DNA of 60,115 nt, the filler included, from Nemertoderma westbladi (lineage: Eukaryota; Animalia; Xenacoelomorpha): NCBI GenBank assembly GCA_032718475.1. It is 3 parts of 3 records of this genome, joined end to end, with 100 filler letters (N's around TTAATTAATTAA, not from the genome) between each part and the next. Parts side by side here need not be neighbours in the genome. Positions count along the whole stretch, not along the records: positions 28,977 to 60,115 come from JAUCBJ010006955.1; 2 more parts are not named here. One strand, given 5' to 3'. The position numbers were made by a program, and so were the translations under genes. The notes under the pieces are model-generated. The model searched no databases and had not been told where the DNA came from. It was given only the letters and a program-made list of their open reading frames with translations. Shown one piece after another: positions 1 through 55,603 of the stretch (position 1 is the stretch's first letter; every line of letters starts with the position of its first letter).

Positions 1-2
1 CC

Positions 3-12900: not shown

Positions 12901-13074
12901 AATGAGAATCAACCTCCACCCCCACTATATCAAGTATAAGGAAAAATATGCAATATGTTTCAGTTTCTAGATGCCATGGCAACATTGTTAACAAAGTGTT
13001 TTCAATATCACTTAGCTGTTTTGACAACATAAAGGAGCGCATTTTGAAAGATGTGTGAGGTTTACGTGTTACGT

Positions 13075-13906: not shown

Positions 13907-14006
13907 NNNNNNNNNNNNNNNNNNNNNNNNNNNNNNNNNNNNNNNNNNNNTTAATTAATTAANNNNNNNNNNNNNNNNNNNNNNNNNNNNNNNNNNNNNN
14001 NNNNNN
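13907..14006. other. Artificial contig linker / assembly gap
   Basis: N44-TTAATTAATTAA-N44; the 12-mer places stop codons in all six frames. Confidence 0.95.
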
Positions 14007-29750: not shown

Positions 29751-29987
29751 TTATGATTGGACGGATGAGTAGCGTTGGGGGACTAATAACGCCTCTAGCG
29801 GAAGATGCGGGAACTTGAGAAGTTGCCATGGTTACGGATTAAATGCTGACATCTGATTGGTTGAAATAATAACGACCACCGCAAAAGGTTGAAATAGTGG
29901 CTTCTGATTGGACAGAGTACCAGAAATGGACGGTAATGATGGGCTACGGGTGACCATTATCCAGTGTCATAGTATTGTATACTACTC

Positions 29988-30981
29988 GTCCTCCAAGGAG
30001 ACACACTTGCACCATTCTTGTTCATTATTGTGGTTGACTATGTTCTACGCATGTCCTTAGATCATCATAATGATGATGGGGTGATGATAACTCCACCTAC
30101 TGGCTCCAGAAGTCGAGGAAATCCTGCCAAGTACCTAACTGATCTAGACTTTGCTGATGACTTAGGAGTACTCTCAGAATCATTAGAGGGAGCCCAACGG
30201 CTCCTCAGCTCATTAGAACATGCTGCTTCTAGTGTTGGTCTTTTTATTAACCCCAGAAAGACCAAAATTCTGACAGTCAACTTTGAAAGTCCTCAGCAAG
30301 TCTCTGATCGGATGAGCATAAGCTCAAAGGATGGTATGCTTGAGCATGTGGACGACTTCTGTTACCTTGGATCATGGATCCGGAAGTCAGGTGAGGACCT
30401 TCGAATACGTAAGGGAAAGGCATGGGCAGCCTTGAATAGGCTTTCCAGGATTTGGAAGTCACCTAGAATTAATCGGAAACTTAAGGTCCGATTATTTAGA
30501 GCAGCAGTAGTTCCAGTACTCCTCTATGGGAGTCCATGCTGGGCTCTAACTGCTGAGGACACCAAATCTCTGGATGGCACATTCACAAGAATGCTACGCC
30601 GGGTTCATTGTGTCAAGTACAATGCACACATCTCCAACCAGACACTATATAACATTGGAGGTGTCTCATTGGTTCCCCCAAGCTTGACACTAGAACAAAA
30701 TCGCCTCCGCTTTGCAGGACATTGCTTTCGCCGTGAGGACCAGCCAGTGCATAATCTTGTACTTTGGCAGCCTCATGGAGTGATTAAGCATGGTGGACAG
30801 CCCATGACTTTCTTGAGACGCATCTTAAAGGACACTGGCCTTAAAGATGCGGATGATCTAGCAAATGTCATGGGTGATAGGGAGTTGTGGCGGTGCAATT
30901 TTGTTGACAAGCCGGCACAGCATTCTTAAAAATGCAGCTGCAATGCAGCATGCCGATCCTAGTAGTAGTAGTAGTAGTAGT
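29988..30981 (+). mobile_element. 5'-truncated RTE-clade LINE with intact RT C-terminal ORF and (TAG)n tail
   Basis: VLQGDTLAPFLFIIVVDY, DLDFADD, FCYLGS, AW.ALNRL..IWKS, VLLYG, RLRFAGHCFR. Stop at 30929, short 3' UTR, (TAG)7 tail at 30960-30980. Confidence 0.93.
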
Positions 30982-33900
30982 GAACGCCGAGCTCTATGGT
31001 ACTATACCATCTGTATCAACCACCCTCCGTGAACGCCGAGCTCTATGGTACTATACCATCTGTATCAACCACCCTCCGTGAACGCCGAGCTCTAGGGTAC
31101 TATACCACCTGTATCAACCACCCTCCGTGAACGCCGAGCTCTATGGTACTATACCATCTGTATCAACCACCCTCCGTGAACGCCGAGCTCTATGGTACTA
31201 TACCACCTGTATCAACCACCCTCCGTGAACGCCGAGCTCTATGGTACTATACCATCTGTATCAACCACCCTCCGTGAACGCCGAGCTCTATGGTACTATA
31301 CCATCTGTATCAACCACCCTCCGTGAACGCCGAGCTCTAGGGTACTATACCATCTGTATCAACCACCCTCCGTGAACGCCGAGCTCTATGGTACTATACC
31401 ATCTGTATCAACCACCCTCCGTGAACGCCGAGCTCTATGGTACTATACCATCTGTATCAACCACCCTCCGTGAACGCCGAGCTCTAGGGTACTATACCAC
31501 CTGTATCAACCACCCTCCGTGAACGCCGAGCTCTATGGTACTATACCATCTGTATCAACCACCCTCCGTGAACGCCGAGCTCTAGGGTACTATACCACCT
31601 GTATCAACCACCCTCCGTGAACGCCGAGCTCTAGGGTACTATACCACCTGTATCAACCACCCTCCGTGAACGCCGAGCTCTAGGGTACTATACCACCTGT
31701 ATCAACCACCCTCCGTGAACGCCGAGCTCTATGGTACTATACCATCTGTATCAACCACCCTCCGTGAACGCCGAGCTCTAGGGTACTATACCACCTGTAT
31801 CAACCACCCTCCGTGAACGCCGAGCTCTAGGGTACTATACCATCTGTATCAACCACCCTCCGTGAACGCCGAGCTCTAGGGTACTATACCACCTGTATCA
31901 ACCACCCTCCGTGAACGCCGAGCTCTAGGGTACTATACCACCTGTATCAACCACCCTCCGTGAACGCCGAGCTCTAGGGTACTATACCACCTGTATCAAC
32001 CACCCTCCGTGAACGCCGAGCTCTAGGGTACTATACCAACTGTATCAACCACCCTCCGTGAACGCCGAGCTCTAGGGTACTATACCACCTGTATCAACCA
32101 CCCTCCGTGAACGCCGAGCTCTATGGTACTATACCATCTGTATCAACCACCCTCCGTGAACGCCGAGCTCTAGGGTACTATACCACCTGTATCAACCACC
32201 ATCCCTCCGTGAACGCCGAGCTCTATGGTACTATACCATCTGTATCAACCACCCTCCGTGAACGCCGAGCTCTAGGGTACTATACCACCTGTATCAACCA
32301 CCCTCCGTGAACGCCGAGCTCTATGGTACTATACCAACTGTATCAACCACCCTCCGTGAACGCCGAGCTCTATGGTACTATACCATCTGTATCAACCACC
32401 CTCCGTGAACGCCGAGCTCTAGGGTACTATACCACCTGTATCAACCACCCTCCGTGAACGCCGAGCTCTATGGTACTATACCATCTGTATCAACCACCCT
32501 CCGTGAATGCCGAGCTCTAGGGTACTATACCACCTGTATCAACCACCCTCCGTGAAAGCCGAGCTCTATGGTACTATACCATCTGTATCAACCACCCTCC
32601 GTGAACGCCGAGCTCTAGGGTACTATACCACCTGTATCAACCACCCTCCGTGAACGCCGAGCTCTATGGTACTATACCATCTGTATCAACCACCCTCCGT
32701 GAACGCCGAGCTCTAGGGTACTATACCAACTGTATCAACCACCCTCCGTGAACGCCGAGCTCTATGGTACTATACCATCTGTATCAACCACCCTCCGTGA
32801 ACGCCGAGCTCTAGGGTACTATACCACCTGTATCAACCACCCTCCGTGAACGCCGAGCTCTATGGTACTATACCACCTGTATCAACCACCCTCCGTGAAC
32901 GCCGAGCTCTATGGTACTGTACCATCTGTATCAACCACCCTCCGTGAACGCCGAGCTCTATGGTACTATACCATCTGTATCAACCACCCTCCGTGAACGC
33001 CGAGCTCTATGGTACTATACCATCTGTATCAACCACCCTCCGTGAACGCCGAGCTCTATGGTACTATACCATCTGTATCAACCACCCTCCGTGAACGCCG
33101 AGCTCTATGGTACTATACCATCTGTATCAACCACCCTCCGTGAACGCCGAGCTCTATGGTACTGTACCATCTGTATCAACCACCCTCCGTGAACGCCGAG
33201 CTCTATGGTACTATACCATCTGTATCAACCACCCTCCGTGAACGCCGAGCTCTATGGTACTATACCATCTGTATCAACCACCCTCCGTGAACGCCGAGCT
33301 CTATGATACTATACCATCTGTATCAACCACCCACCGTGAACGCCGAGCTCTATGGTACTATACCATCTGTATCAACCACCCTCCGTGAACGCCGATCTCT
33401 ATGGTACTGTACCACCTGTATCAACCACCCTCCCTCCGTGAACGCCGAGCTTTATGGTACTATACCAACTGTATCAACCACCCTCCGTGAACGCCGAGCT
33501 CTATGGTACTATACCATCTGTATCAACCACCCTCCGTGAACGCCGATCTCTATGGTACTATACCATCTGTATCAACCACCCTCCCTCCGTGAACGCCGAG
33601 CTCTATGGTACTATACCATCTGTATCAACCACCCTCCGTGAACGCCGAGCTCTATGGTACTGTACCACCTGTATCAACCACCCTCCGTGAACGCCGAGCT
33701 CTATGGTACTATACCAACTGTATCAACCACCCTCCGTGAACGCCGAGTTCTATGGTACTATACCAACTGTATCAACCACCCTCCGTGAACGCCGAGCTCT
33801 ATGGTACTGTACCACCTGTATCAACCACCCTCCCTCCGTGAACGCCGAGCTCTATGGTACTATACCATCTGTATCAACCACCCTCCGTGAACGCCGAGCT

Positions 33901-35339
33901 CTATGGTACTGTACCACCTGTATCAACCACCCTCCGTGAACGCCGAGCTCTATGGTACTATACCATCTGTATCAACCACCCTCCGTGAACGCCGAGCTCT
34001 ATGGTACTGTACCACCTGTATCAACCACCATCCTCCGTGAACGTCGAGCTCTATGGTACTATACCAACTGTATCAACCACCCTCCGTGAACGCCGAGCTC
34101 TATGGTACTATACCATCTGTATCAACCACCCTCCGTGAACGCCGAGCTCTATGGTACTATACCATCTGTATCAACCACCCTCCGTGAACGCCGAGCTCTA
34201 TGGTACTGTACCACCTGTATCAACCACCCTCCCTCCGTGAACGCCGAGCTTTATGGTACTATACCAACTGTATCAACCACCCTCCGTGAACGCCGAGCTC
34301 TATGGTACTATACCATCTGTATCAACCACCATCCGTGAACGCCGAGCTCTATGGTACTATACCATCTGTATCAACCACCCTCCGTGAACGCCGAGCTCTA
34401 TGGTACTATACCATCTGTATCAACCACCCTCCGTGAACGCCGAGCTCTATGGTACTGTACCACCTGTATCAACCACCCTCCCTCCGTGAACGCCGAGCTT
34501 TATGGTACTATACCAACTGTATCAACCACCCTCCGTGAACGCCGAGCTCTATGGTACTATACCATCTGTATCAACCACCATCCGTGAACGCCGAGCTCTA
34601 TGGTACTATACCATCTGTATCAACCACCCTCCGTGAACGCCGAGCTCTATGGTACTATACCATCTGTATCAACCATCCTCCGTGAACGCCGAGCTCTATG
34701 GTACTGTACCACCTGTATCAACCACCATCCCTCCGTGAACGCCGAGCTCTATGGTACTATACCATCTGTATCAACCACCCTCCGTGAACGCCGAGCTCTA
34801 TGGTACTGTACCACCTGTATCAACCACCCTCCGTGAACGCCGAGCTCTATGGTACTATACCATCTGTATCAACCACCCTCCGTGAACGCCGAGCTCTATG
34901 GTACTGTACCACCTGTATCAACCACCATCCCTCCGTGAACGCCGAGCTCTATGGTACTATACCAACTGTATCAACCACCCTCCGTGAACGCCGAGCTCTA
35001 TGGTACTATACCACCTGTATCAACCACCCTCCGTGAACGCCGAGCTCTATGGTACTATACCATCTGTATCAACCACCCTCCGTGAACGCCGAGCTCTATG
35101 GTACTATACCACCTGTATCAACCACCCTCCGTGAACGCCGAGCTCTATGGTACTATACCATCTGTATCAACCACCCTCAGTGAACGCCGAGCTCTATGGT
35201 ACTATACCATCTGTATCAACCACCCTCCGTGAACGCCGAGCTCTATGGTACTATACCATCTGTGTCAACCACCCTCCGTGAACGCCGAGCTCTATGGTAC
35301 TGTACTATACCACCTGTATCAACCACCCTCCGTGAACGC
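30981..35339. repeat. 49-bp satellite, ~89 copies, derived from RTE coding sequence
   Basis: Unit GTGAACGCCGAGCTCTATGGTACTATACCATCTGTATCAACCACCCTCC translates NAELYGTIPSVSTTLRER. Confidence 0.95.
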
Positions 35340-35642: not shown

Positions 35643-38506
35643 GTCTACATAGCCACCCTACATAAAAGTATCAGACAACTTTTCGAAATTATTTGTTAAT
35701 AAAATTTAATACTATTTATAACAAACCTAAAAATTTAGCATAAATTTGCAGCGCCACCTAGCGTTGCAGAATTATTTTCACTAATTACATTGAGTAATTG
35801 ATTAATAAGTAATTGACTACCAATATGTAACAACCATAATTGATTACAATCACTAAGAAACTGGTATACAACGCAGTATGCTGTGGAAAATGTATATATT
35901 TCCTTTAATTTAACTGTAAATTATTTTGTATATAATTTTGTATTATGTTTTTGTAGTTTTGAGCTGCTATATTAATATGATCACGTGACATATATAAATC
36001 GTATTAGTAATACTTAATTAAGAAGCAATTAATAGTCACTCAAATAATATAGACTATTTGTTAGAATTTGTAAAATATATCAATATTTGTTAATTTACCA
36101 CTCACCGAAAATAGGAAGTCCCACACCCGTGTTCTGAGTTTGGTTGGTTCACATATCCTGGTTCAGAGATTGGTTGGTTCACATATCGTGGTTCAGAGAT
36201 TGGTTGGTTCACATATCGTGGTTCAGAGTTTGGTTGGTTAACATATCGTGGTTCAGAGTTTGGTTGATTCACATATCGTGGATTCGAGTTTGATTGGTTC
36301 ACATATCGTGGTTCAGAGTTTGGTTGGTTCACATATCCTGGTTCAGAGTTTGGTTGGTTCACATATCCTGGTTCAGAGTTTGGTTGGTTCACATATCGTG
36401 GTTCAGAGATTGGTTGGTTCACATATCGTGGTTCAGAGTTTGGTTGGTTAACATATCGTGGTTCAGAGTTTGGTTGGTTCACATATCGTGGTTAAAAGTT
36501 TGGTTGGTTCACATATCGTGGTTCAGAGATTGGTTGGTTCACATATCGTGGTTCAGAGTTTGGTTGGTTCACATATCGTGGTTCAGAGTTTGGTTGGTTC
36601 ACATATCGTGGTTCAGAGTTTGGTTGGTTAACATATCGTGGTTCAGAGTTTGGTTGGTTCACGTATCGCGGTTCAGAGTTTGGTTGGTTCACATATCGTG
36701 GATTCGAGTTTGATTGGTTCACATATCGTGGTTCAGAGATTGGTTGGTTCTCATATTGTGGTTCAGAGTTTGGTTGGTTCTCATATCGTGCTTCAGAGTT
36801 TGGTTGGTTCACATATCGTGGTTCAGAGTTTGGTTGGTTCACATATCGTGGTTCAGAGTTTGGTTGGTTCACATATCGTGGTTCAGAGTTTGGTTGGTTC
36901 ATATATCGTGGTTCAGAGTTTGGTTGGTTCATATATCGTGGTTCAGAGTTTGGTTGGTTCACATATCGTGGTTCAGAGTTTGGTTGGTTCACATATCGTG
37001 GTTCAGAGTTTGGTTGGTTCATATATCGTGGTTCAGAGTTTGGTTGGTTCACATATCGTGGTTCAGAGTTTGGTTGGTTCACATATCGTGGTTCAGAGTT
37101 TGGTTGGTTCATATATCGTGGTTCAGAGTTTGGTTGGTTCACATATCGTGGTTCAGAGTTTGGTTGGTTCACATATCGTGGTTCAGAGTTTGGTTGGTTC
37201 ACATGTTGTGGTTCAGAGTTTGGTTGGTTCACATATCGTGGTTCAGAGATTGGTTGGTTCACATATCGTGGTTCAGAGTTTGGTTGGTTCACATATCGTG
37301 GTTCAGAGTTTGGTTGGTTCACATATTGTCGTTCAGAGTTTGGTTGGTTCACATATTGTGGTTAAGAGTTTGGTTGGTTCTCATATCGTGGTTCAGAGTT
37401 TGGTTGGTTCACATATTGTCGTTCAGAGTTTGGTTGGTTCACATATTGTGGTTCTGAGTTTGGTTGGTTCTCATATCGTGGTTCAGAGTTTGGTTGGTTT
37501 ACATATCGTGGTTTAGAGTTTGGTTGGTTCACATATCCTGGTTCAGAGTTTGGTTGGTTCACATATCGTGGTTCAGAGTTTGGTTGGTTAACATATCGTG
37601 GTTCAGAGTTTGGTTGGTTCACATATCGTGGATTCGAGTTTGATTGGTTCACATATCGTGGTTCAGAGTTTGGTTGGTTCACATATCCTGGTTCAGAGTT
37701 TGGTTGGTTCACATATCCTGGTTCAGAGTTTGGTTGGTTCACATATCGTGGTTCAGAGATTGGTTGGTTCACATATCGTGGTTCAGAGTTTGGTTGGTTA
37801 ACATATCGTGGTTCAGAGTTTGGTTGGTTCACATATCGTGGTTAAAAGTTTGGTTGGTTCACATATCGTGGTTCAGAGATTGGTTGGTTCACATATCGTG
37901 GTTCAGAGTTTGGTTGGTTCACATATCGTGGTTCAGAGTTTGGTTGGTTCACATATCGTGGTTCAGAGTTTGGTTGGTTAACATATCGTGGTTCAGAGTT
38001 TGGTTGGTTCACGTATCGCGGTTCAGAGTTTGGTTGGTTCACATATCGTGGATTCGAGTTTGATTGGTTCACATATCGTGGTTCAGAGATTGGTTGGTTC
38101 TCATATTGTGGTTCAGAGTTTGGTTGGTTCTCATATCGTGCTTCAGAGTTTGGTTGGTTCACATATCGTGGTTCAGAGTTTGGTTGGTTCACATATCGTG
38201 GTTCAGAGTTTGGTTGGTTCACATATCGTGGTTCAGAGTTTGGTTGGTTCATATATCGTGGTTCAGAGTTTGGTTGGTTCATATATCGTGGTTCAGAGTT
38301 TGGTTGGTTCACATATCGTGGTTCAGAGTTTGGTTGGTTCACATATCGTGGTTCAGAGTTTGGTTGGTTCATATATCGTGGTTCAGAGTTTGGTTGGTTC
38401 ACATATCGTGGTTCAGAGTTTGGTTGGTTCACATATCGTGGTTCAGAGTTTGGTTGGTTCACATGTTGTGGTTCAGAGTTTGGTTGGTTCACATATTATG
38501 GTTCAG

Positions 38507-38792
38507 TAAAGTAAAAGTAAAGTAAAGTAAATTTTCTTCGGCCGCTAGACCAGGGATTACGCACAAAGTCTGACGACTTATTTCCAGTGCGGTCCCCCCA
38601 GAACTTTACTCCCCAGAGGAAACTCCAGTACTCATTTAGCTACCACTTAAGGATGCAAGGCAGAGATGCGCCCTGGCTGGTCCCTTTATAGCATTCGTGC
38701 CGAAACGAAAACTGCCCTGGCCCATGTGAGGATCGAACCCACGACCTACAGGAGATGTCAATTCAATGCAACCACTACACCAAGGTGGAACC
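38507..38792 (-). mobile_element. tRNA-derived SINE, 286 bp, inside the satellite (copy 1)
   Basis: Minus strand starts GGTTCCACCT, with A-box TGGTGTAGTGG, B-box GGTTCGATCC and a (TTTAC)n tail. TTCAG is duplicated on both sides. Confidence 0.85.
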
Positions 38793-40357
38793 TTCAGAGT
38801 CTGGTTGGTTCTCATATCGTGGTTCAGAGTTTGCTTGGTTCACATATTGTGGTTCAGAGTTTGGTTGGTTCACATATTGTGGTTCAGAGTTTGGTTGGTT
38901 CTCATATAGTGGTTCAGAGTTTGGTTGGTTCACATATCGTGGTTCAGAGTTTGGTTGGTTCACATATTGTTGTTCAGATTTTGGTTGGTTCTCATATCGT
39001 GGTTCAGAGTTTTGTTGGTTCACATATTGTGGTTCAGAGTTTGGTTGGTTCACATATTGTGGTTTAGAGTTTGGTTGGTTCACATATCGTGGTTCAGAGT
39101 TTCGTTAGTTCACATATTGTGGTTCAGAGTTTGGTTGGTTCACATATTGTGGTTCAGAGTGTGGTTGGTTCACATATCGTGGTTCAGAGTTTCGTTAGTT
39201 CACATATTGTGGTTCAGAGATTGTTTGGTTCACATATTGTGGTTCAGAGTTTGGTTGGTTCTCATATTGTGGTTCAGAGTTTGGTTGGTTCACATATTGT
39301 CGTTCAGAGTTTGGTTGGTTCACATATTGTGGTTAAGAGTTTGGTTGGTTCTCATATCGTGGTTCAGAGTTTGGTTGGTTCACATATTGTCGTTCAGAGT
39401 TTGGTTGGTTCACATATTGTGGTTCTGAGTTTGGTTGGTTCTCATATCGTGGTTCAGAGTTTGGTTGGTTTACATATCGTGGTTTAGAGTTTGGTTGGTT
39501 CACATATCCTGGTTCAGAGTTTGGTTGGTTCACATATCGTGGTTCAGAGTTTGGTTGGTTCACATATCCTGGTTCAGAGTTTGGTTGGTTCACATATCGT
39601 GGTTCAGAGATTGGTTGGTTCACATATCGTGGTTCAGAGTTTGGTTGGTTAACATATCGTGGTTCAGAGTTTGGTTGGTTCACATATCGTGGTTAAAAGT
39701 TTGGTTGGTTCACATATCGTGGTTCAGAGATTGGTTGGTTCACATATCGTGGTTCAGAGTTTGGTTGGTTCACATATCGTGGTTCAGAGTTTGGTTGGTT
39801 CACATATCGTGGTTCAGAGTTTGGTTGGTTAACATATCGTGGTTCAGAGTTTGGTTGGTTCACGTATCGCGGTTCAGAGTTTGGTTGGTTCACATATCGT
39901 GGATTCGAGTTTGATTGGTTCACATATCGTGGTTCAGAGATTGGTTGGTTCTCATATTGTGGTTCAGAGTTTGGTTGGTTCTCATATCGTGCTTCAGAGT
40001 TTGGTTGGTTCACATATCGTGGTTCAGAGTTTGGTTGGTTCACATATCGTGGTTCAGAGTTTGGTTGGTTCACATATCGTGGTTCAGAGTTTGGTTGGTT
40101 CATATATCGTGGTTCAGAGTTTGGTTGGTTCATATATCGTGGTTCAGAGTTTGGTTGGTTCACATATCGTGGTTCAGAGTTTGGTTGGTTCACATATCGT
40201 GGTTCAGAGTTTGGTTGGTTCATATATCGTGGTTCAGAGTTTGGTTGGTTCACATATCGTGGTTCAGAGTTTGGTTGGTTCACATATCGTGGTTCAGAGT
40301 TTGGTTGGTTCACATGTTGTGGTTCAGAGTTTGGTTGGTTCACATATTATGGTTCAG

Positions 40358-40643
40358 TAAAGTAAAAGTAAAGTAAAGTAAATTTTCTTCGGCCGCTAGA
40401 CCAGGGATTACGCACAAAGTCTGACGACTTATTTCCAGTGCGGTCCCCCCAGAACTTTACTCCCCAGAGGAAACTCCAGTACTCATTTAGCTACCACTTA
40501 AGGATGCAAGGCAGAGATGCGCCCTGGCTGGTCCCTTTATAGCATTCGTGCCGAAACGAAAACTGCCCTGGCCCATGTGAGGATCGAACCCACGACCTAC
40601 AGGAGATGTCAATTCAATGCAACCACTACACCAAGGTGGAACC
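40358..40643 (-). mobile_element. tRNA-derived SINE (copy 2, co-duplicated with the satellite)
   Basis: Apparently identical to copy 1, with the same junctions and flanking unit variants, 1851 bp away. Confidence 0.85.
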
Positions 40644-43283
40644 TTCAGAGTCTGGTTGGTTCTCATATCGTGGTTCAGAGTTTGCTTGGTTCACATATTG
40701 TGGTTCAGAGTTTGGTTGGTTCACATATTGTGGTTCAGAGTTTGGTTGGTTCTCATATAGTGGTTCAGAGTTTGGTTGGTTCACATATCGTGGTTCAGAG
40801 TTTGGTTGGTTCACATATTGTTGTTCAGATTTTGGTTGGTTCTCATATCGTGGTTCAGAGTTTGGTTGGTTCACATATTGTGGTTCAGAGTTTGGTTGGT
40901 TCACATATTGTGGTTTAGAGTTTGGTTGGTTCACATATCGTGGTTTAGAGTTTCGTTAGTTCACATATTGTGGTTCAGAGTTTGGTTGGTTCACATATTG
41001 TGGTTCAGAGTGTGGTTGGTTCACATATCGTGGTTCAGAGTTTCGTTAGTTCACATATTGTGGTTCAGAGATTGTTTGGTTCACATATTGTGGTTCAGAG
41101 TTTGGTTGGTTCTCATATTGTGGTTCAGAGTTTGGTTGGTTCACATATTGTCGTTCAGAGTTTGGTTGGTTCACATATTGTGGTTAAGAGTTTGGTTGGT
41201 TCTCATATCGTGGTTCAGAGTTTGGTTGGTTCACATATTGTCGTTCAGAGTTTGGTTGGTTCACATATTGTGGTTCTGAGTTTGGTTGGTTCTCATATCG
41301 TGGTTCAGAGTTTGGTTGGTTTACATATCGTGGTTTAGAGTTTGGTTGGTTCACATATCCTGGTTCAGAGTTTGGTTGGTTCACATATCGTGGTTCAGAG
41401 TTTGGTTGGTTCATATATCCTGGTTCAGAGTTTGGTTGGTTCTCATATCGTGGTTCAGAGTTTGGTTGGTTCACATATCCTGGTTCAGAGTTTGGTTGGT
41501 TCACATATCGTGGTTCAGAGTTTGGTTGGTTCACATATCCTGGTTCAGAGTTTGGTTGGTTCACATATCGTGGTTCAGAGTTTGGTTAGTTCACATATCG
41601 TGGTTCAGAGTTTGGTTGGTTCATATATCGTGGTTCAGAGTTTGGTTAGTTCACATATCGTGGTTCAGAGTTTGGTTGGTTCACATATCGTGGTTCAGAG
41701 TTTGGTTGGTTAACATATCCTGGTTCAGAGTTTGGTTGGTTCACATATCGTGGTTCAGAGTTTGGTTGGTTCACATATCCTGGTTCAGAGTTTGGTTGGT
41801 TCACATATTGTGGTTCAGAGTTTGGTTGGTTCTCATATTGTGGTTCAGAGTTTGGTTGGTTCACATATTGTCGTTCAGAGTTTGGTTGGTTCACATATTG
41901 TGGTTCAGAGTTTGGTTGGTTCTCATATCGTGGTTCAGAGTTTGGTTGGTTCACATATTGTCGTTCAGAGTTTGGTTGGTTCACATATTGTGGTTCTGAG
42001 TTTGGTTGGTTCTCATATCGTGGTTCAGAGTTTGGTTGGTTCACATATCGTGGTTTAGAGTTTGGTTGGTTCACATATCCTGGTTCAGAGTTTGGTTGGT
42101 TCACATATCGTGGTTCAGAGTTTGGTTGGTTCATATATCCTGGTTCAGAGTTTGGTTGGTTCTCATATCGTGGTTCAGAGTTTGGTTGGTTCACATATCC
42201 TGGTTCAGAGTTTGGTTGGTTCACATATCGTGGTTCAGAGTTTGGTTGGTTCACATATCCTGGTTCAGAGTTTGGTTGGTTCACATATCGTGGTTCAGAG
42301 TTTGGTTAGTTCACATATCGTGGTTCAGAGTTTGGTTGGTTCATATATCGTGGTTCAGAGTTTGGTTAGTTCACATATCGTGGTTCAGAGTTTGGTTGGT
42401 TCACATATCGTGGTTCAGAGTTTGGTTGGTTCTCATATCGTGGTTCAGAGTTTGGTTGGTTCACATATCGTGGTTCAGAGTTTGGTTGGTTCACATATCC
42501 TGGTTCAGAGTTTGGTTGGTTCACATATCGTGGTTCAGAGTTTGGTTGGTTCATATATCCTGGTTCAGAGTTTGGTTGGTTCTCATATCGTGGTTCAGAG
42601 TTTGGTTGGTTCACATATCCTGTCGTTCAGAGTTTGGTTGGTTCACATATTGTGGTTCTGAGTTTGGTTGGTTCTCATATCGTGGTTCAGAGTTTGGTTG
42701 GTTCACATATCGTGGTTCAGAGTTTGGTTGGTTCACATATCCTGGTTCAGAGTTTGGTTGGTTCACATATCGTGGTTCAGAGTTTGGTTGGTTCATATAT
42801 CCTGGTTCAGAGTTTGGTTGGTTCTCATATCGTGGTTCAGAGTTTGGTTGGTTCACATATCCTGGTTCAGAGTTTGGTTGGTTCACATATCGTGGTTCAG
42901 AGTTTGGTTGGTTCACATATCCTGGTTCAGAGTTTGGTTGGTTCACATATCGTGGTTCAGAGTTTGGTTAGTTCACATATCGTGGTTCAGAGTTTGGTTG
43001 GTTCATATATCGTGGTTCAGAGTTTGGTTAGTTCACATATCGTGGTTCAGAGTTTGGTTGGTTCACATATCGTGGTTCAGAGTTTGGTTGGTTCACATAT
43101 CGTGGTTCAGAGTTTGGCTGATTCCCACATCGTTCACATATCCTATATAATTATCAGCTTATGAGGTTTTGCTGGAATATATTCGACTATATTTAGTAGA
43201 TTTCGGTAGTTGAATTCGGAAATGATTCTCGGTGTTATACCTATTAGACCAATAATTTAATAATTTTAATTTAAAAATAAAGT

Positions 43284-43808
43284 TACACGAAGTGGGGACT
43301 TCGCGCAGCACGAAGTTGGCAGAGCCTTAGCGAATTGACACTGTTAGGGGGTAGGTCAATTTATGCAAATAGTCACGTTGGCCCTCTAGCGGCAGACTGG
43401 AGAACTGCAGATGGATTCGCCTCCTTTGAAAGTCACAGCTAATGGTCTAATACATATCTGCCAAGTTTCAGCTTAAACGGATTAAAAGCAAAGAAATGGG
43501 AGGGCATTTAATGTTTAGACATGTGGCCCTCTAGCGGGAGACCATTGCACTGATGGTGTCTGAAAGTCTCTCAAAAATCTCAACTTTTGCTCATATTGAT
43601 ACCTACAAATTTTCAACTTGGCAGCTTTAAATCCGACAAAGTTATTAGCATGTCAAAATCGTAACGACGACGACAACGACGACGACGACAACGACGACGA
43701 CGACAACGACGACGACGACGACGACGACAACTATTTGCATAAATTGACCCACCCCCTAACAGTGTCAATTCGCTAAGGCTCCGCCAACTTCGTGGCTCGC
43801 CCCACAAT
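43284..43808 (-). mobile_element. Short rearranged copy of the Helentron-like non-autonomous element
   Basis: 43379-43808 is the near-exact reverse complement of 53955-54402, including the (GTC)n microsatellite. 43284-43312 matches the far end at 55575-55603. Confidence 0.75.
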
Positions 43809-43944
43809 GAAGTTTGTACAAAATAAAATAAAGTTACAATGACAATGACGATGAGATGGACTGATCTGATTATAAAATAATTTGTAATATAAAATCAATT
43901 TAATAACCTTATAATATATTATATTTACAGTCCACTACTATTGC

Positions 43945-46900
43945 CTAACTGTCTTTATGTTTTTTTCTAGTTAGTAATTTAACTAAGTGGCTCTGGTTAG
44001 TTTTATTCAATAATTCACAGAATACAATAAAGTCATCATAAGGTCTCCTTTTAATGGCTTCTATTAGTTCGCTGTTTTTTTGTAAACCAGTCGGCTGATA
44101 TTTGATCTGCTCAATAAGATTATCAGTAAGAATATTTCTACTTCTCAATAGCGGTAACAATTCACTCAGCTCCATGTTATAAACCAGTTCAACTTTATTC
44201 CTCATAAGAATATTTTCAAATTCTACATCAACGTTTCCTTTTATCATATCTACTAAATGTTGTTGGTTTGTTTGTGTTAAACTATCCATAAATACTTTCA
44301 TAATGAACTCTGATTTCCCTTTCAGAGATTCTATAATGGCTCGGCTCTTTAGTATTTTAGTTTCTCTTGTTTCTATAAACTGAATCTGATCATTGTTTAG
44401 TATAAAACTTTTTTCGATATATAGTAATAACTCGGTTGGTTCAAGTTTTTCTTCAAATATTTTTGTTTCAACTTTTAAATATTCCTGATCCTTTGATTTA
44501 ACTAAAAACCAAGTTTTATATTCCTGAGTTTCTATACTTGCATTATTCTCACACGTAATTATTGGTTTACTCAAACAATCTGGTAGTAGAATAAAGTGGA
44601 TACAGGATTCATTGTGGCATTTATATAGGCCATGCCTTTCACATTTATATGAACAAGGACATGTTACTTTCAATTGAAAATCAACAATATTGTTCATTTT
44701 TCCAGCTGATATAAGTTCTCCCAAGCTGTCAACAATGTAATCTTTTACTCTGTTTGCAAAATCAGAATCTGGAGGACTTATAATATTTTCGTAGCTATCA
44801 ATATTATCTTTAGGTTTCATAAGAACTTTTCTTACAATTTGAACTTTTATTCTAGAAAAATGCCTTGGAGACACATATAGAATTATATCGTGATCAACAT
44901 CAAAGTATATAACTACAGACCGGTAGTAAAGAGTTGGTTCAGATTTAATATCTCCAATGAGATACGACCATTCTATAAGGCGTTTTACTAGTCGATAAAA
45001 TAGACCCTCAGGTAAAAAACCATTAAATGCAATAAAAAATTCAATATCATTCGCTTTAATAGGGTAAATAGGCTGATTGGAATTTTTAAGTCTACAAGGT
45101 ACATAATATGATTTATTCATTTTTGACTTTTTTAACAATGTTTCTGATTCGTCTCCATTACCTGGCACAGTTTCTCCTATTCTTTCACATATTAAATCAA
45201 AACGCTCTAGGATTTTTAACATAAAAGTTTTTTTGAGTCCCATATAACCCCAGATATCGTCCAGTAGATCCCAGTGCAATATACCCTTGTCATCCAAATC
45301 TTCAAAATATTTCAAATTTTTCCAATTGATATGTTCTTTGACTGTAATAATACTGGCAAACATTGAACTTATCCACTCTGGTTTCAATATAATTGTATCA
45401 CGCAACGATTCTTCATCAAAATAGATAATTCTACCTCTATCATGGTAAAATTCTAACATTGTCTTTAAACCGGGGTATTCAAATTCTACTTTTATTTCCT
45501 TTAACTTACATTCTAAATCTATAATATCAATGTATACGTCATCATTTTTAAGTAATTGAGTTACAAGTTTTTCAAATTTTAAATAATCCAAAGGAATTTC
45601 TTCCTTAAATTTGTCCATTTCTTTAACAATTTCTAGCTGTAAGTTTTGAAGTTCTTCATCTGAATCTGATCTTGCCTCTTTGCTATTTTCCACAGCAAAT
45701 GCTTCTTTAACTAAAATATTGCAATGCAATGTGGACTTTAATAGTCGGAAAATTTCTTTAAACTTTTTACGAGCTAAAATGTTCTGAGTTTCTGGATCTT
45801 CATGCAAACTGGCTTTCTTTGTTCCAACTAAGAATACTGGAGGACCAGAAATATTTGCTCCACGTTCTGAATTATTTTTACCAAATGTAAATATATTGCG
45901 CAACCAAAAATCAATAAATTCTATATTAGTCATCTCGATATATATCTTATTTATATTCTCTTCATCGGCTCTGAATATAATGTTGGCTGTTTTATCAGCA
46001 TCTTGGGTAAGATCAAAAACAACGATATAAATAGCCCGTCTACTTAGAAACATCTGATGGGTTGTGTAATAAATACATTGGCCACCAAAATCGACTATCT
46101 GTAGAGAAAAGCGACTGTCTTCCTCATTAAATTTAGCCAGAATATCTTGAGGTTTACCAGATAACAATATATCCTCTATACCTTTTGTGACTTCTGAAGG
46201 GATATCATATTTATTGTCCTCAAATTTTGATTCATATGGTGTTACGACTTTTCCGCTATCAGATGTATTTCCTCTTTCGCTATCTACTGAAATATCTTCT
46301 CTAATTTCCTTGCTGCTTTCTATTTTAACAGGCTTATCATAAGAACTGGTTCTATTATTCATGTCTCTATCGCTATTTTCACCAGATATTACTGATAAAG
46401 TTGACTGGGTGCCATCAGTGTATATTTTTTCACTGTCCACATTAGAAGCATCTTCTTGAACTTTGAATTCTAGAACACTTTTTGCAACTTTCTTTGCAAC
46501 AGCATTATCTGGATCAGCCTCTAAAATATCAACATTCTTTAAATTAGTCCAGTCTGTGTGTTTATCAGTATCTATAACACAATTAGCCACTGAATCAATA
46601 CCATCTGTTATTGGTTCATTAATATCAAACGGTTGACCAATAAGGGCCTTCTTCAAACTAGTTTTACCAGCCCTCTCTTGTCCCACTAACATTAACCGGG
46701 TATTCAGTATCCATGTAGTCCCTTTAGAAAGAGCTGCTTTATAAGCAGCCAATGCTTCTGGGCCTCTCGCCAGTATCTCTATTGGCAGTTTTTGTTCTTT
46801 AATATAATTAATTAAAAATTTTGGAAGTTTCAGTGTATTTGATCCACTTATATTCATAATCATAAGTCCCATGTCTCTGAATTTATTAACAATTTCTATT

Positions 46901-47207
46901 GTTGAAATTTCATTTAAACCCCAAATACTAACCAGATTCTGGGTTGTTAGCTCAGAAATATCTGCATCCAGTCTAAAGTAAAGTTCTTTCTCTTTATCTG
47001 AAAGAACATCAACAGTAGATATAATTATATCAGTTATCTTACCCTGGAATGGTTTATTTATGGGACCAACCCATCCAATATACTCAACAATTTCCTTTAA
47101 TTCTTCAGCTTCCACCAATATACCTTCCACCTGTTTGATACTTTTCTTTGTTTCAGTTTGACCTTCACGGAACGTATCAATTACTGTAATTGTGCCGCCA
47201 TCATCTC
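43945..47207 (-). CDS. ROCO-family protein: winged helix - Roc GTPase - COR - Cys/His cluster - CARD - CARD (probably a large terminal exon; ORF extends to ATG 47256)
   Basis: EILARGPEALAAYKAALSKG, P-loop RLMLVGQERAGKTSL, TDGID, DFGGQ..YYTTHQMFLSRRAIYIVVFDL, FIDFWL, PPVFLVGT. COR motifs LEFYHDRGRIIYF, IILKPEWI, LERFDL, YYVPCRL, LPEGLFYRL. Two death-fold repeats ending F..SL.QTNQQHLV and FCELLNKTNQSHLV. Confidence 0.88.
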
Positions 47208-47265
47208 CTGCATAAAGTATAATTATTGTTAAGTTGTCTTTCCACAGAGTTGACATCCAATATTA

Positions 47266-48014
47266 CGATGAAAAATTCTGGGTTGGAGCAAGTTAAATAT
47301 TATTAATCAAATTACAAATATAATTATAAATATAATTCGTTAGGGTCTCCAATATGCACCTACGGTCCCTATACGTTTCCCTGCCTATGTCTTCTGTTTT
47401 TTGGTTACAACATTTATTCTGGTTTTAGTGCAATTTTCAACAGATATCAAGTCATACATTACGTTAGTCAATTCTGCAATTTATATTAGAATTTGTACTT
47501 TATTGATAACTGGCAGGCAATACCCGAGGCATGTTACCCGGTATTTCCCGCTACTGGCATAGGCCTACTGGCGTACTGGTACCGGTATAGGCCTACTGAC
47601 GTACCGGTACCCAGTACCGGTACCGAACGTGAATTAAACTTTTCGAAAAGTGGTCTATAACGACCGCTGGTTAAAGTTATACACACATGCCAAGTTCCAG
47701 CGCAATCCCTCCGCCCGTTTTGGAGGAGTTCGAACACAGAGAGAGAGAGAGAGAGAGATAATTTGATTTTTATAGGTATATATATATATACTAGCAGGCA
47801 ATACCCGAGGCATGTTACCCGGTATTTACCGCTACCGGCATAGGCATACTGGCGTACTGGTACCGGTATAGGCCTACTGACGTACCGGTACCTAGTACCG
47901 GTACCGAACGTGAATTAAACTATTCGAAAAGTGGCCTATAACGACCGCTGGTTAAAGTTATACACACATGCCAAGTTCCAGCGCAATCCCTCTGCCCGTT
48001 TTGGAGGAGTTCGA

Positions 48015-48074
<60 letters not shown>

Positions 48075-48191
48075 TGATTTTTATAGGTATAGATTGATAA
48101 TGAAAGCGCTGAGCTACCGAAATATACATGTAATTATATTTGACATTTGATTAATAATATTTAACTTGCTCCAACCCAGAATTTTTCATCG
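47266..48191. mobile_element. Inverted-repeat-bounded element just upstream of the ROCO exon
   Basis: 46-bp perfect inverted pair at 47266-47311 and 48146-48191, extending with mismatches in both directions. Confidence 0.7.
47510..48093 (-). mobile_element. Two head-to-tail non-autonomous Helitron-like copies (47510-47789, 47791-48093) with (AG)n microsatellite
   Basis: On the minus strand, copy 2 has an A|TC 5' end, a subterminal GC-rich hairpin (ccgggtaacatgcctcgg) and a CTAG|T 3' end. Copy 1 ends CCAG. Confidence 0.75.
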
Positions 48192-48257
48192 AATATAACT
48201 GACATCTCAAACTTTCTTATAGTTAATCCAAAATTACGTATTATAGCAAGGATAAAC

Positions 48258-48448
48258 GGACAATAGGCGGGACAATAGGCGGGACAAAAGGCGGGACAAA
48301 AGGCGGGACATTAGGCGGGATAATAGGCGGGACAATAGGCGGGACAATAGGCAGGACAATATGCGGGGCAATAGGCGGGACAAGAGGCGGGACAATAGGC
48401 GGGACAATAGGCGGGACAATAGGCGGGACAATAGGCGGGACAATAGGA
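48258..48448. repeat. 12-bp minisatellite (GGACAATAGGCG), ~16 copies
   Basis: Direct reading; the source of the RLLS and PPIV pseudo-ORFs. Confidence 0.9.
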
Positions 48449-48521
48449 TGGTTAAAATTATAAAAATATGTTTTTTGCAATATTTCTGAGCCGAAGTGAA
48501 GCTGAAATACAATATCTCACT

Positions 48522-51500
48522 GATACTGTATACTGTTAATATAAACAACTACCCGCGATACTGTATACTGTTAATATAAACAACTACCCGCGATACTGTA
48601 TACTGTTAATATAAACAACTACCCGGCGATACTGTATACTGTTAATATAAACAACTACCCGCGATACTGTTAATATAAACAACTACCCGCGATACTGTAT
48701 ACTGTTACTATAAACAACTACCCGCGATACTGTATACTGTTAATATAAACAACTACCCGCGATACTGTATACTGTTAATATAAACAACTACCCGCGATAC
48801 TGTATACTGTTACTATAAACAACTACCCGCGATACTGTATACTGTTAATATAAACAACTACCCGCGATACTGTATACTGTTAATATAAACAACTACCCGC
48901 GATACTGTATACTGTTAATATAAACAACTACCCGCTATACTGTATACTGTTAATATATAAACAACTACCCGCGATACTGTATACTGTTACTATAAACAAC
49001 TACCCATGATACTGTATACTGTTAATATAAACAACTACCTGCGATACTGTTAATATAAACAACTACCCGCGATACTGTATACTGTTAATATAAACAACTA
49101 CCTGCGATACTGTTAATATAAACAACTACCCGCGATACTGTATACTGTTAATATAAACAACTACCCGCGATACTGTATACTGTTACTATAAACAACTACC
49201 CATGATACTGTATACTGTTACTATAAACAACTACCCATGATACTGTATACTGTTAATATAAAAACAACTACCCGCGATACTGTATACTGTTAATATAAAC
49301 AACTACCCGCGATACTGTTAATATAAACAACTACCCGCGATACTGTATACTGTTAATATAAAAACAACTACCCGCGATACTGTATACTGTTAATATAAAC
49401 AACTACCCGCGATACTGTATACTGTTAATATAAACAACTACCCGCGATACTGTATACTGTTAATATAAACAACTACCCGCGATACTGTATACTGTTAATA
49501 TAAACAACTACCCGCGATACTGTATACTGTTAATATAAACAACTATACCCGCGATACTATATACTGTTAATATAAACAACTACCCGCGATATTGTATACT
49601 GTTAATATAAACAACTACCCGCGATACTGTTAATATAAACAACTACCCGCGATACTGTATACTGTTAATATAAACAACTACCCGCGATACTGTATACTGT
49701 TAATATAAACAACTACCCGCGATACTGTATACTATTAATATAAACAACTACCCGCGATACTGTATACTGTTAATATAAACAACTACCCGCGATACTGTAT
49801 ACTGTTAATATAAACAACTACCCGCGATACTGTATACTGTTAATATAAACAACTACCCGCGATACTGTTAATATAAACAACTACCCGCGATACTGTATAC
49901 TGTTAATATAAACAACTACCCATGATACTGTATACTGTTAATATAAACAACTACCCGCGATACTGTATACTGTTACTATAAACAACTACCCGCGATACTG
50001 TATACTGTTACTATAAACAACTACCCGCGATACTGTATACTGTTAATATAAACAACTACCCGCGATACTGTATACTGTTAACATAAACAACTACCCGCGA
50101 TACTGTATACTGTTAATATAAACAACTACCCGCGATACTGTATACTGTTAATATAAACAACTACCCATGATACTGTATACTGTTAATATAAACAACTACC
50201 CGCGATACTGTATACTGTTAATATAAACAACTACCCGCGATACTGTATACTGTTAATATAAACAACTACCCGCGATACTGTATACTGTTAATATAAACAA
50301 CTACCCGCGATACTGTTAATATAAACAACTACCCATGATATTGTATACTGTTACTATAAACAACTACCCATGATACTGTATACTGTTAATATAAACAACT
50401 ACCCGCGATACTGTATACTGTTAATATAAACAACTACCCATGATACTGTATACTGTTAATATAAACAACTACCCGCGATACTGTATACTGTTAATATAAA
50501 CAACTACCCGCGATACTGTATACTGTTAATATAAACAACTACCCGCGATACTGTATACTGTTAATATAAACAACTACCCATGATACTGTATACTGTTAAT
50601 ATAAACAACTACCCGCGATACTGTATACTGTTAATATAAACAACTACCCGCGATACTGTATACTGTTAATATAAACAACTACCCATGATACTGTATACTG
50701 TTAATATAAACAACTACCCGCGATACTGTATACTGTTAATATAAACAACTACCCATGATACTGTATACTGTTACTATAAACAACTACCCGCGATACTGTA
50801 TACTGTTAATATAAACAACTACCCGCGATACTGTATACTGTTAATATAAACAACTACCCGCGATACTGTATACTGTTAATATAAACAACTACCCGCTATA
50901 CTGTATACTATTAATATAAACAACTACCCATGATACTGTATACTGTTAATATAAACAACTACCCGCGATACTGTATACTGTTAATATAAACAACTACCTG
51001 CGATACTGTTAATATAAACAACTACCCGCGATACTGTATACTGTTAATATAAACAACTACCCGCGATACTGTATACTGTTAATATAAACAACTACCCGCG
51101 ATACTGTATACTGTTAATATAAACAACTACCCGCGATACTGTATACTGTTAATATAAACAACTACCCGCTATACTGTATACTATTAATATAAACAACTAC
51201 CCATGATACTGTATACTGTTAATATAAACAACTACCCGCGATACTGTATACTGTTAATATAAACAACTACCTGCGATACTGTTAATATAAACAACTACCC
51301 GCGATACTGTATACTGTTAATATAAACAACTACCCATGATACTGTATACTGTTAATATAAACAACTACCCGCGATACTGTATACTGTTAATATAAACAAC
51401 TACCCATGATACTGTATACTGTTAATATAAACAACTACCCGCGATACTGTATACTGTTAATATAAACAACTACCCATGATACTGTATACTGTTAATATAA

Positions 51501-52045
51501 ACAACTACCCGCGATACTGTATACTGTTAATATAAACAACTACCCGCGATACTGTATACTGTTACTATAAACAACTACCCGCGATACTGTATACTATTAA
51601 TATAAACAACTACCCATGATACTGTATACTGTTAATATAAACAACTACCCGCGATATACTGTATACTGTTAATATAAACAACTACCCATGATACTGTATA
51701 CTGTTAATATAAACAACTACCCGCGATACTGTATACTGTTAATATAAACAACTACCCGCGATACTGTATACTGTTAATATAAACAACTACCCGCGATACT
51801 GTTAATATAAACAACTACCCGCGATACTGTATACTGTTAATATAAACAACTACCCGCGATACTGTATACTGTTACTATAAACAACTACCCGCGATACTGT
51901 ATACTGTTACTATAAACAACTACCCGCGATACTGTATACTGTTAATATAAACAACTACCCGCGATACTGTATACTGTTAATATAAACAACTACCCGCGAT
52001 ACTGTATACTGTTAATATAAACAACTATACCCGCGATACTGTATA
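48522..52045. repeat. 35-bp satellite (GATACTGTATACTGTTAATATAAACAACTACCCGC), ~100 copies
   Basis: Direct reading; recurrent 7-bp-deleted units and cccatg variants. Confidence 0.97.
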
Positions 52046-53954: not shown

Positions 53955-54048
53955 TTGTGGGGCGAGCCACGAAGTTGGCGGAGCCTTAGCGAATTGACAC
54001 TGTTAGGGGGTGGGTCAATTTATGCAAATAGTTGTCGTCGTCGTCGTT

Positions 54049-54105
<57 letters not shown>

Positions 54106-55603
54106 GTCGTCGTCGTTACGATTTTGACATGCTAATAACTTTGTCGGATTTAAAGCTGCCAAGTTGAAAATTTGTAGGTATCAATATGAGCAAAAGTTGA
54201 GATTTTTGAGAGACTTTCAGACACCATCAGTGCAATGGTCTCCCGCTAGAGGGCCACATGTCTAAACATTAAATGCCCTCCCATTTCTTTGCTTTTAATC
54301 CGTTTAAGCTGAAACTTGGCAGATATGTATTAGACCATTAGCTGTGACTTTCAAAGGAGGCGAATCCATCTGCAGTTCTCCAGTCTGCCGCTAGAGGGCC
54401 AAAGGTCTGAAAGTGAAATCGTTGTCGTCGTTACGATTTTGACATGCTAATAACTTTGTCGGATTTAAAGCTGCCAAGTTGAAAATTTGTAGGTATCAAT
54501 ATGAGCTAAAGTTGAGATTTTTGAGAGACTTTCAGACACCATCAGTGCAATGGTCTCCCGCTAGAGGGCCACATGTCTAAACATTAAATGCCCTCCCATT
54601 TCTTTGCTTTTAATCCGTTTAAGCTGAAACTTGGCAGATATGTATTAGACCATTAGCTGTGACTTTCAAAGGAGGCGAATCCATCTGCAGTTCTCCAGTC
54701 TGCCGCTAGAGGGCCAAAGGTCTGAAAGTGAAATCGTTGTCGTCGTTACGATTTTGACATGCTAATAACTTTGTCGGATTTAAAGCTGCCAAGTTGAAAA
54801 TTTGTAGGTATCAATATGAGCTAAAGTTGAGATTTTTGAGAGACTTTCAGACACCATCAGTGCAATGGTCTCCCGCTAGAGGGCCACATGTCTAAACATT
54901 AAATGCCCTCCCATTTCTTTGCTTTTAATCCGTTTAAGCTGAAACTTGGCAGATATGTATTAGACCATTAGCTGTGACTTTCAAAGGAGGCGAATCCATC
55001 TGCAGTTCTCCAGTCTGCCGCTAGAGGGCCAAATGTCTGAAAGTGAAATCGTTGTCGTCGTTATGATATTGACATGCTTATAACTTTGTCGAATTTAAAG
55101 CTGCCAAGTTGAAAATTCGTTTTGTTGAAAATCAGTTCAACAGTCACCCGCTATAGGACTACTTTATGCCTGAAAGTGAATAGATTCTCCCGTCTCATTG
55201 ATTTTAATCAGTTTAAGCTGAATCTTGCCATATATTCTGGACCACATGCTGCGTCTTTGTGGGGGGGGGGGGGGGGGGGGAGATTTAATCGGTCTGCCGC
55301 TATACGACGAAATTTCTGAAAGTGAGATCCGTCTCTCATTTCGTTATCCGTTATTCAAGATGAAACTTGGCCGATGTACGTATGTACTATTCATCCATAG
55401 GCTGTGTCTTTGTGGGGCTGGAGACCCTAATCCATCTTCAGTTCTCACTATACCGCTAGAGTCAGAAATGTCTGAATAGAAATGAAAGAGGTGAAAAGTG
55501 ATTAGGCGAAATCTGCTTAAAATTTGCTAATACAGTAATACTTTCGAATTAGTACTTAAATTAAATTTAAGTCACGTGCTGCGCGAAGGCCCCACTTCGT
55601 GTA
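53955..55603 (+). mobile_element. Helentron/HINE-like non-autonomous element with internal 315-bp tandem repeats
   Basis: 5' TTGTGGGGCGAGCCACGAAGT and 3' ...GCGAAGGCCCCACTTCGTGTA share short subterminal inverted motifs. (GTC)n microsatellite. 315-bp units start at 54121, 54436, 54751 and 55066. Confidence 0.7.

What the first reader, a model, noticed from the sequence alone, without database searches (positions are those of the whole stretch)
43945..47256. Kinase-less ROCO GTPase ending in tandem CARDs: candidate GTP-switched death or immune signalling platform
Seen: an open 1103-codon frame with Roc G1-G3 motifs, COR motifs, a Cys/His cluster (~44550-44665) and two C-terminal ~80-aa repeats with the CARD pattern (~44245-44460 and ~43970-44220). 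There is no kinase or LRR in this exon. Established: COR dimerises ROCO proteins (LRRK2, DAPK1, MFHAS1), and tandem CARDs are the effector module of RIG-I, MDA5 and NOD2. Invertebrate ROCO families with death-fold domains are known but poorly characterised. Inference: Roc-COR could replace the NACHT/NB-ARC ATPase as the oligomerising switch that clusters two CARDs to recruit a caspase or adaptor.
Basis: partly seen in the sequence, partly recalled or inferred. Interest (0 to 1): 0.85.

Follow-up and report, generated by a model that had tools for sequence, protein, structure and literature searches.

The report
Amplified ROCO GTPase with twin CARDs
This animal gene joins an LRRK2-type GTP switch to two cell-death adaptor (CARD) domains and likely recruits a caspase; the pairing is already known from other invertebrates, but read depth suggests this one has recently multiplied to roughly 10-30 near-identical copies, and its job is untested.

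Summary
There is an open 1103-codon frame (47256-43945, minus strand) with Roc, COR-A, a conserved Cys/His cluster and two CARDs that each pass Pfam's cut-off. The modelled core matches LRRK1/2 and bacterial Roco. The architecture is not new in kind. Trichoplax ROCO proteins with CARD and death domains were published in 2014, and a freshwater mussel protein among my hits also ends Roc-COR-CARD-CARD, acquired independently. Lacking kinase and LRR is normal in this invertebrate clade, whose members carry Death, TIR, caspase, HEPN, GT4 and other effectors. New here: in three DNA runs the ORF's contigs are 10-33 times deeper than neighbouring genes and about 1% different, so the gene looks recently amplified. 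One run that behaves as RNA covers most of the ORF. Against the simple story: the G4 guanine-binding Asp is replaced, the only RNA-like contig over CARD2 has a frameshift, the true start is uncertain, and known COR domains form dimers, not NLR-like rings. Best reading: a lineage-expanded ROCO adaptor that likely brings CARD caspases together. New variant of a known kind; interest 0.45.

The parts
43945..47256 (-). ORF, 1103 aa plus stop, uninterrupted by introns; may be the last coding exon of a longer transcript
46810..47256 (-). N-terminal region aa 1-149, no detectable homologue or fold; contigs over the 5' end are deeper than over the rest of the ORF
   Evidence: depth
47208..47209 (-). 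candidate splice acceptor AG at codon 16-17 (inferred); the RNA-like run has depth 188 at 47201 and 0 at 47234 and 47345
   Evidence: my stricter pyrimidine-tract filter did not list it
45607..46704 (-). Roc GTPase domain aa ~185-550: G1 46683-46660, G2 Thr217, G3 46092-46081, altered G4 45825-45811, G5 45693-45682
46132..46584 (-). about 150-aa polar insert between G2 and G3, aa 279-348 predicted disordered
45187..45576 (-). COR-A domain aa 561-690
44662..45114 (-). COR-B-like domain aa ~715-865; no Pfam hit, but confidently modelled and inside the region aligned to LRRK1/2 and CtRoco
44551..44661 (-). Cys/His cluster aa 866-902, conserved in the clade, likely zinc-binding
44239..44478 (-). 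CARD 1, aa 927-1006
43966..44214 (-). CARD 2, aa 1015-1097
47260..48196 (.). MITE-like element: 84-bp inverted ends (90%), internal 281-bp unit x1.9, ending 4 nt before the ATG; a 7-bp direct repeat that includes the ATG lies just outside both ends (possible target-site duplication, inferred)

Best explanation
This is a member of the invertebrate, non-LRRK Roc-COR clade with two C-terminal CARDs, likely present in many recent copies, and it likely works as a nucleotide-controlled dimer that brings CARD-bearing initiator caspases or adaptors together for cell death or immune signalling. Shown: the domains, the clade, and the depth excess. Inferred: (1) the Roc nucleotide cycle shifts a COR-mediated monomer-dimer balance, as in CtRoco and LRRK2; (2) the dimer presents four CARDs that bind a CARD caspase and activate it by proximity; (3) the orphan N-terminal region, or unseen upstream exons, supply the trigger; (4) the amplification is a lineage-specific expansion of an immune gene.
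For: Domains and fold. G1, G2, G3 and G5 match the consensus of 131 homologous cores. Among the 150 best relatives at least 44 show a Death domain, 15 TIR, 5 DED, 4 CARD and 4 a caspase. In Owenia and Lingula proteins a caspase domain follows Roc-COR directly (P0067, P0048), the position the CARDs hold here; the Owenia ROC-caspase is noted in PMC11463336. CARD2's nearest solved sequences are Apaf-1, CED-4, RAIDD, CARD8 and caspase-9 CARDs, at weak E 0.005-0.05. The frame is open over 1103 codons, and none of 34 listed variant codons is a stop. An RNA-like run covers 29 of 30 bins of the region.
Against: No binding partner or activity was shown. G4 reads TKKA where homologues have His in 111 of 131 and Asp in 85 of 131, so guanine binding may be weak. 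Differences between this copy and the majority contigs are 11 synonymous to 23 non-synonymous, against 20% synonymous expected (p=0.065), which is not clear purifying selection. The single RNA-like contig over CARD2 has a 5-nt deletion at 44035, and that run has no depth over 44327-44487 in CARD1. CtRoco is mainly monomeric with GTP, so the direction of the switch is unknown.
Confidence: 0.45

Rival explanations
1. The ORF is cargo of a mobile or selfish element that is copying it around the genome, so the copy number reflects transposition rather than host selection for immunity.
For: Depth is 10-33 times that of neighbouring genes with about 1% differences. The 5' part is deeper still (21-77 times), a few contigs are 7-9% diverged, and one contig skips 44303-45377, as deleted copies of an element would. 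The ORF is AT-rich (GC 32%, GC3 24%, against 39%/37% for the kinesin and 51%/56% for WDR36), has a MITE-like element at its start, and sits between two satellite arrays.
Against: No long inverted repeat brackets the ORF, and none of the 8 frames scanned gave a DNA transposase hit. The neighbouring kinesin is also a single 765-codon frame, so lack of introns is normal here. No relative was found in viral contigs. The skipping contig has only 29 letters on its short side.
Confidence: 0.2
2. The ORF is only the last exon of a larger receptor whose sensor domains (repeats, NHR, macro or similar) are encoded by upstream exons.
For: An AG acceptor-like site at 47209-47208, with RNA-like coverage present at 47201 and absent at 47234 and 47345. 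Many relatives have N-terminal NHR, ANK, TPR, SH2, macro or NACHT modules.
Against: None of 188 relatives hits the window outside the ORF by tblastn at E<=0.01, and the 12.8 kb upstream has no convincing coding frame. No spliced joint at 47208 was among the 15 joints shown, of 87.
Confidence: 0.2
3. The family is a decaying or decoy set: nucleotide binding is impaired and the CARDs act as inhibitors that soak up caspases, or most copies are non-functional.
For: G4 change, long branch of 1.3-1.45 substitutions per site, near-neutral variant ratio, frameshift in the RNA-like CARD2 contig.
Against: G1, G2, G3, G5, the COR motifs and the Cys/His ligands are intact, and G4 Asp is also absent in 46 of 131 homologues. 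The frame is open and the core models at high confidence.
Confidence: 0.15

Closest known systems
Trichoplax adhaerens ROCO repertoire (Civiero et al. 2014, PMC4104024; passages and figure legend read, figure not seen)
   Same: Roc-COR surrounded by CARD and death domains, in an expanded set of at least 17 genes.
   Different: Those are diverged paralogues with varied domains. Here the copies look near-identical and end in a CARD pair. Whether Figure 1 already shows a CARD pair I could not see.
Sinanodonta woodiana KAL3889163.1 (P0097), a hypothetical protein
   Same: Roc-COR followed by two C-terminal CARDs.
   Different: It has a 270-aa N-terminal extension, its CARDs are 65% identical to each other and 17-25% to the query's, and one clade with the query is rejected (p-AU 1e-83): a separate origin.
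NHR-Roc-COR-Death-TIR proteins of molluscs, amphioxus and nemerteans (P0001-P0005; Aplysia ROCO-bearing MyD88-like gene in PMC9334734, passages read)
   Same: Closest Roc-COR core (29-34% identity) including the Cys/His cluster; same 19-row starred group in the tree.
   Different: Neuralized domain in front and Death+TIR behind, instead of an orphan N-terminus and two CARDs.
Prokaryotic AP-GTPase (ROCO) counter-invader systems (Kaur et al. 2021, PMC8195603, section 15 read)
   Same: Constant GTPase-COR core with a swappable C-terminal effector (TIR, caspase, trypsin, GT4), and several paralogues per genome.
   Different: Bacterial, LRR-fronted; CARD is not among the effectors named in that section.
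RIG-I/MDA5 2CARD and NOD2 (PMC4763080 passages for the 2CARD tetramer; NOD2 recalled)
   Same: A tandem CARD pair attached to an NTP-dependent module.
   Different: Their CARDs are N-terminal and driven by a helicase or NACHT ATPase. RIG-I signals through a tetramer of 2CARD (eight CARDs), while a COR dimer would give four.

Membership tests
ROCO (Roc-COR) GTPases | Roc domain with P-loop G1, switch I Thr and G3 DxxG | tested here: met
   Pfam Roc E 3.8e-13; G192, G197, K198, T199, T217, D389, G392 match the consensus of 131 cores
ROCO (Roc-COR) GTPases | COR domain directly after Roc | tested here: met
   COR-A above cut-off. COR-B has no Pfam hit but the model aligns over about 790-830 columns with LRRK1, LRRK2 and CtRoco, E down to 5e-18
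ROCO (Roc-COR) GTPases | Guanine-specificity motif G4 (clade consensus TH[KR]D) | tested here: inconclusive
   Query TKKA; His in 111 of 131 and Asp in 85 of 131 homologues, so the motif is variable in the clade but the query departs at both places
ROCO (Roc-COR) GTPases | GTP binding, hydrolysis and nucleotide-dependent dimerisation | not testable with these tools
   needs biochemistry
CARD death-fold domain | Pfam CARD above the gathering score for each repeat | tested here: met
   25.8 and 44.8 bits against 23.9
CARD death-fold domain | Six-helix bundle | tested here: inconclusive
   All-helical, with about six helices per repeat, but pLDDT 32-77; the single-sequence model was unusable
LRRK / DAPK / MFHAS1 subfamilies | Kinase domain or N-terminal LRRs | tested here: not met
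   None in the ORF or elsewhere in the window; exons outside the window are not excluded
NLR / STAND receptors | NACHT or NB-ARC ATPase with sensor repeats | tested here: not met
RIG-I-like receptors | N-terminal CARD pair with DExD/H helicase and CTD | tested here: not met
   CARDs are C-terminal, no helicase; Pfam CARD_2 16.7 and 18.3 bits against 28.2
Cargo-carrying DNA transposon | Terminal repeats and target-site duplication around the whole unit, or a linked transposase | tested here: inconclusive
   No long inverted repeat brackets the ORF within 43100-48520; the unit could extend into or beyond the satellites; no genome is held

The most novel reading that the evidence does not exclude
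An animal mobile element carries a GTPase-switched twin-CARD death platform and is amplifying it: tens of near-identical copies, an orphan N-terminal module shared by still more copies, and deleted derivatives. It would be a selfish or defensive cell-death cassette built on a ROCO switch, and an entry point to an NLR-parallel family of invertebrate Roc-COR receptors with swappable effectors.
Probability: 0.15. Interest if true: 0.8.

Novelty: new variant of a known kind. Interest (0 to 1): 0.45.

Why it matters
The single architecture is a modest addition. The larger point is that invertebrates hold a big non-LRRK Roc-COR clade with interchangeable death and immune effectors, and CARDs were fused to it at least five separate times on the tree. 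I found no functional study of this clade in my paper searches. A short member with only a switch and two CARDs is a simple test case for whether a ROCO nucleotide cycle can drive caspase recruitment, which also bears on how the LRRK2 and DAPK1 switches work. The apparent recent amplification is unusual for a death-signalling gene and needs explaining.

Tried and rejected
COR homodimer prediction (aa 548-920, two copies): no verdict, score 0.00, alignment not used; not counted for or against. Single-sequence fold of the CARD region: pLDDT 38, unusable. N-terminal region: no hit among 603 shorter candidates, none in Pfam, PDB sequences or among the fetched relatives; Atlas first hit 0.90 to unnamed clusters, a lead only; Atlas gave no usable hit for the CARD pair. 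No RNA holder was listed by the run search; X4 was judged RNA-like from my own lay. No related loci in viral or metagenome contigs (37 and 78 pattern matches, none confirmed). No whole genome is held, so copy arrangement, synteny and upstream exons could not be examined. The kinesin tail found no homologue and neither window protein is in the collection, so the lineage is not placed beyond 'animal'. No second ROCO piece lies in the window. Rejected: artefactual repeat ORF (the frame is complex and has real domains, unlike the satellite frames beside it); retrogene argued from lack of introns (neighbours are intron-poor too); kinase loss as a special event (2 of 150 relatives show a kinase); shared origin with the mussel CARD pair. 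Earlier-findings look-ups by sequence, by place and by the long word list returned nothing.

Full report
Observation. The minus strand holds one open frame, 43945-47262, 1105 codons stop to stop and 1103 from the ATG at 47256. Pfam finds Roc, COR-A and two CARD stretches, and no kinase or LRR. Each CARD passes the curated cut-off alone, and the two are 32% identical. With a 63-sequence alignment AlphaFold2 models the Roc-COR core mostly at pLDDT 80-98, leaves aa 1-149 and 279-348 under 50, and builds the CARD region as all-helical at low confidence. Foldseek's best matches are LRRK1, LRRK2 and Chlorobium Roco.

Context. The window is animal DNA: spliced WDR36, a kinesin, reverse-transcriptase fragments and many satellites. 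The ORF lies between a 30-bp array (36131-43117) and a 35-bp array (48522-52045). A MITE-like element with 84-bp inverted ends stops 4 nt before the ATG. An acceptor-like AG at 47209-47208 may be the real exon start (inferred; my stricter filter did not list it). No relative matches the window outside the ORF (0 hits from 188 proteins).

Family. The profile search found 5032 representatives at E<=0.001 and listed 150. I scanned all 150 against Pfam. For some only the best five families were shown and many sequences are partial, so counts are minimums: Death 44, TIR 15, HEPN 7, GT4 7, DED 5, CARD 4, caspase 4, NACHT 3, OTU 2, kinase 2, LRR 1. The 18 representatives I looked up gave names from molluscs, amphioxus, echinoderms, an annelid and a brachiopod for 17, and none for 1. 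Kinase-less and LRR-less is thus the rule. P0097 from Sinanodonta woodiana ends in two CARDs; P0136 from Branchiostoma has two CARD stretches, one of them C-terminal. A local CARD profile added only two weak N-terminal hits. In trees of the core (132 rows; 34 hand-picked rows) the query is a long branch in a group with the NHR-Death-TIR and echinoderm proteins. The five CARD-bearing rows need five changes, and query plus P0097 as one clade is rejected. The query has unusual residue make-up and a long branch, so its exact position is soft.

GTPase site. G1, G2, G3 and G5 match the consensus of 131 cores. G4 is TKKA against TH[KR]D. The Cys/His positions are conserved among cores that reach that far, for example C866 in 63 of 63 and H887 in 50 of 52.

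Copy number. This is the main addition. Contigs on the ORF have depths of 442-749 in runs X1-X3 (two samples), while long contigs on the kinesin and WDR36 have 20-53 in the same runs. The ratio is 10-23 in X1, 26-33 in X2 and 17-25 in X3, and 21-77 for the longest 5' contigs. I left out five contigs of depth 3.5-6.7 over the first WDR36 exon and intron; including them would raise the ratios. The majority contigs differ from the window by about 1% (12 of 1113 letters in the longest). Caveats: the tool warns that depth is not a copy number, the runs were found with this gene, and AT-rich DNA may be over-sequenced. A 10-30 fold excess against a 39% GC neighbour is more than I would expect from bias alone. 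Of the 40 differences shown (54 hidden), 35 fall in the ORF, in 34 codons: 11 synonymous, 23 non-synonymous, no stop; p=0.065 against neutrality.

Expression. No run was on record as RNA. X4 behaves as RNA: one contig of depth 745 skips the GT..AG intron 593-3009 of WDR36, and X1-X3 lack that joint. X4 contigs cover the ORF in pieces at depth 4.5-185 and are absent at 47234 and 47345, where DNA runs have 800-2750, which argues against DNA carry-over. They carry the majority alleles, so this shows transcription of the family, not of this locus. No contig spans the whole architecture, there is no depth over part of CARD1, and the one contig over CARD2 has a 5-nt deletion at codon 1074.

Mechanism. 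By analogy with CtRoco, the C-terminal half of COR would mediate dimers; CtRoco is mainly monomeric with GTP and dimeric when empty (PMC6337361, passages). A dimer would present four CARDs, half of RIG-I's 2CARD tetramer (PMC4763080, passages), so an NLR-like ring is not implied. Initiator caspases are activated by dimerisation (recalled), and in two relatives a caspase domain sits where the CARDs sit here. CARD2 is weakly closest to Apaf-1, CED-4, RAIDD, CARD8 and caspase-9 CARDs. I therefore favour a nucleotide-gated dimer that recruits a CARD caspase, at 0.45. Rivals are mobile cargo, the last exon of a larger receptor, and a decoy or decaying family.

Prior art. Trichoplax has at least 17 ROCO genes with CARD and death domains (PMC4104024, passages). 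Aplysia has ROCO-bearing TIR and death proteins (PMC9334734, passages), as do sea anemones (PMC5094078, passages). About forty animal ROCO domain combinations are reported (PMC11378527, passages). Bacterial AP-GTPase-COR systems swap C-terminal effectors (PMC8195603, passages and section 15). An Owenia caspase with a ROC pro-domain is noted (PMC11463336, passages). Six searches aimed at this question listed no paper whose title or abstract start describes Roc-COR-CARD-CARD or a near-identical amplified ROCO family. Figures and supplements were not seen and may already show the architecture, and Marin's 2008 ROCO papers were not read. Transposon-borne cargo in animals has precedent (PMC8277862 and bioRxiv 10.1101/2022.07.12.499685, search listing and abstract start only).

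Verdict. Real gene, correctly read, a new variant of a known kind. The apparent amplification and the untested function keep it at 0.45.

Noticed in passing
P0067 (Owenia fusiformis CAH1786849.1) and P0048 (Lingula anatina XP_013407220.1): Single chains joining Roc-COR to a caspase; P0067 also has an N-terminal Bcl-2 domain (Pfam E 5e-23), so Bcl-2, GTP switch and caspase lie in one protein. PMC11463336 mentions only a ROC pro-domain in an Owenia caspase.
   Followed up: partly
P0164 (Mercenaria mercenaria XP_053379695.1), aa 345-420: A CARD inserted inside the Roc domain, between G3 and G4.
   Followed up: no
P0146 (Branchiostoma), P0053/P0086/P0149, P0104/P0112/P0121/P0123/P0133/P0158/P0170, P0154: Roc-COR fused to FIIND-Death-Death, to NACHT, to GT4 conflict glycosyltransferases, and in P0154 to a Mutator-like transposase fragment plus DED.
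   Followed up: no
window 5457-7754 (-): Kinesin in a single 765-codon frame; its tail (aa 360-760) found no homologue.
   Followed up: partly
window 1-593 and 3009-4205 (+): WDR36/Utp21 gene with very long exons and one 2415-nt GT..AG intron seen spliced in run X4; the organism looks intron-poor.
   Followed up: partly
window 43309-43794 and 53955-55120: Very high-copy element with 65-bp inverted ends and a GTC microsatellite, with a second copy carrying a 315-bp unit x3.2.
   Followed up: no
window 36131-43117, 48522-52045, 30980-35339, 17318-18407: Long satellite arrays of 30, 35, 49 and 25 bp; the 30-bp array produces many spurious ORFs.
   Followed up: no
window 13059-13954, 18794-20358, 29973-30929: Non-LTR retrotransposon fragments; Pfam RVT_1 hits for the latter two, the first is split and runs into an N gap.
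   Followed up: no
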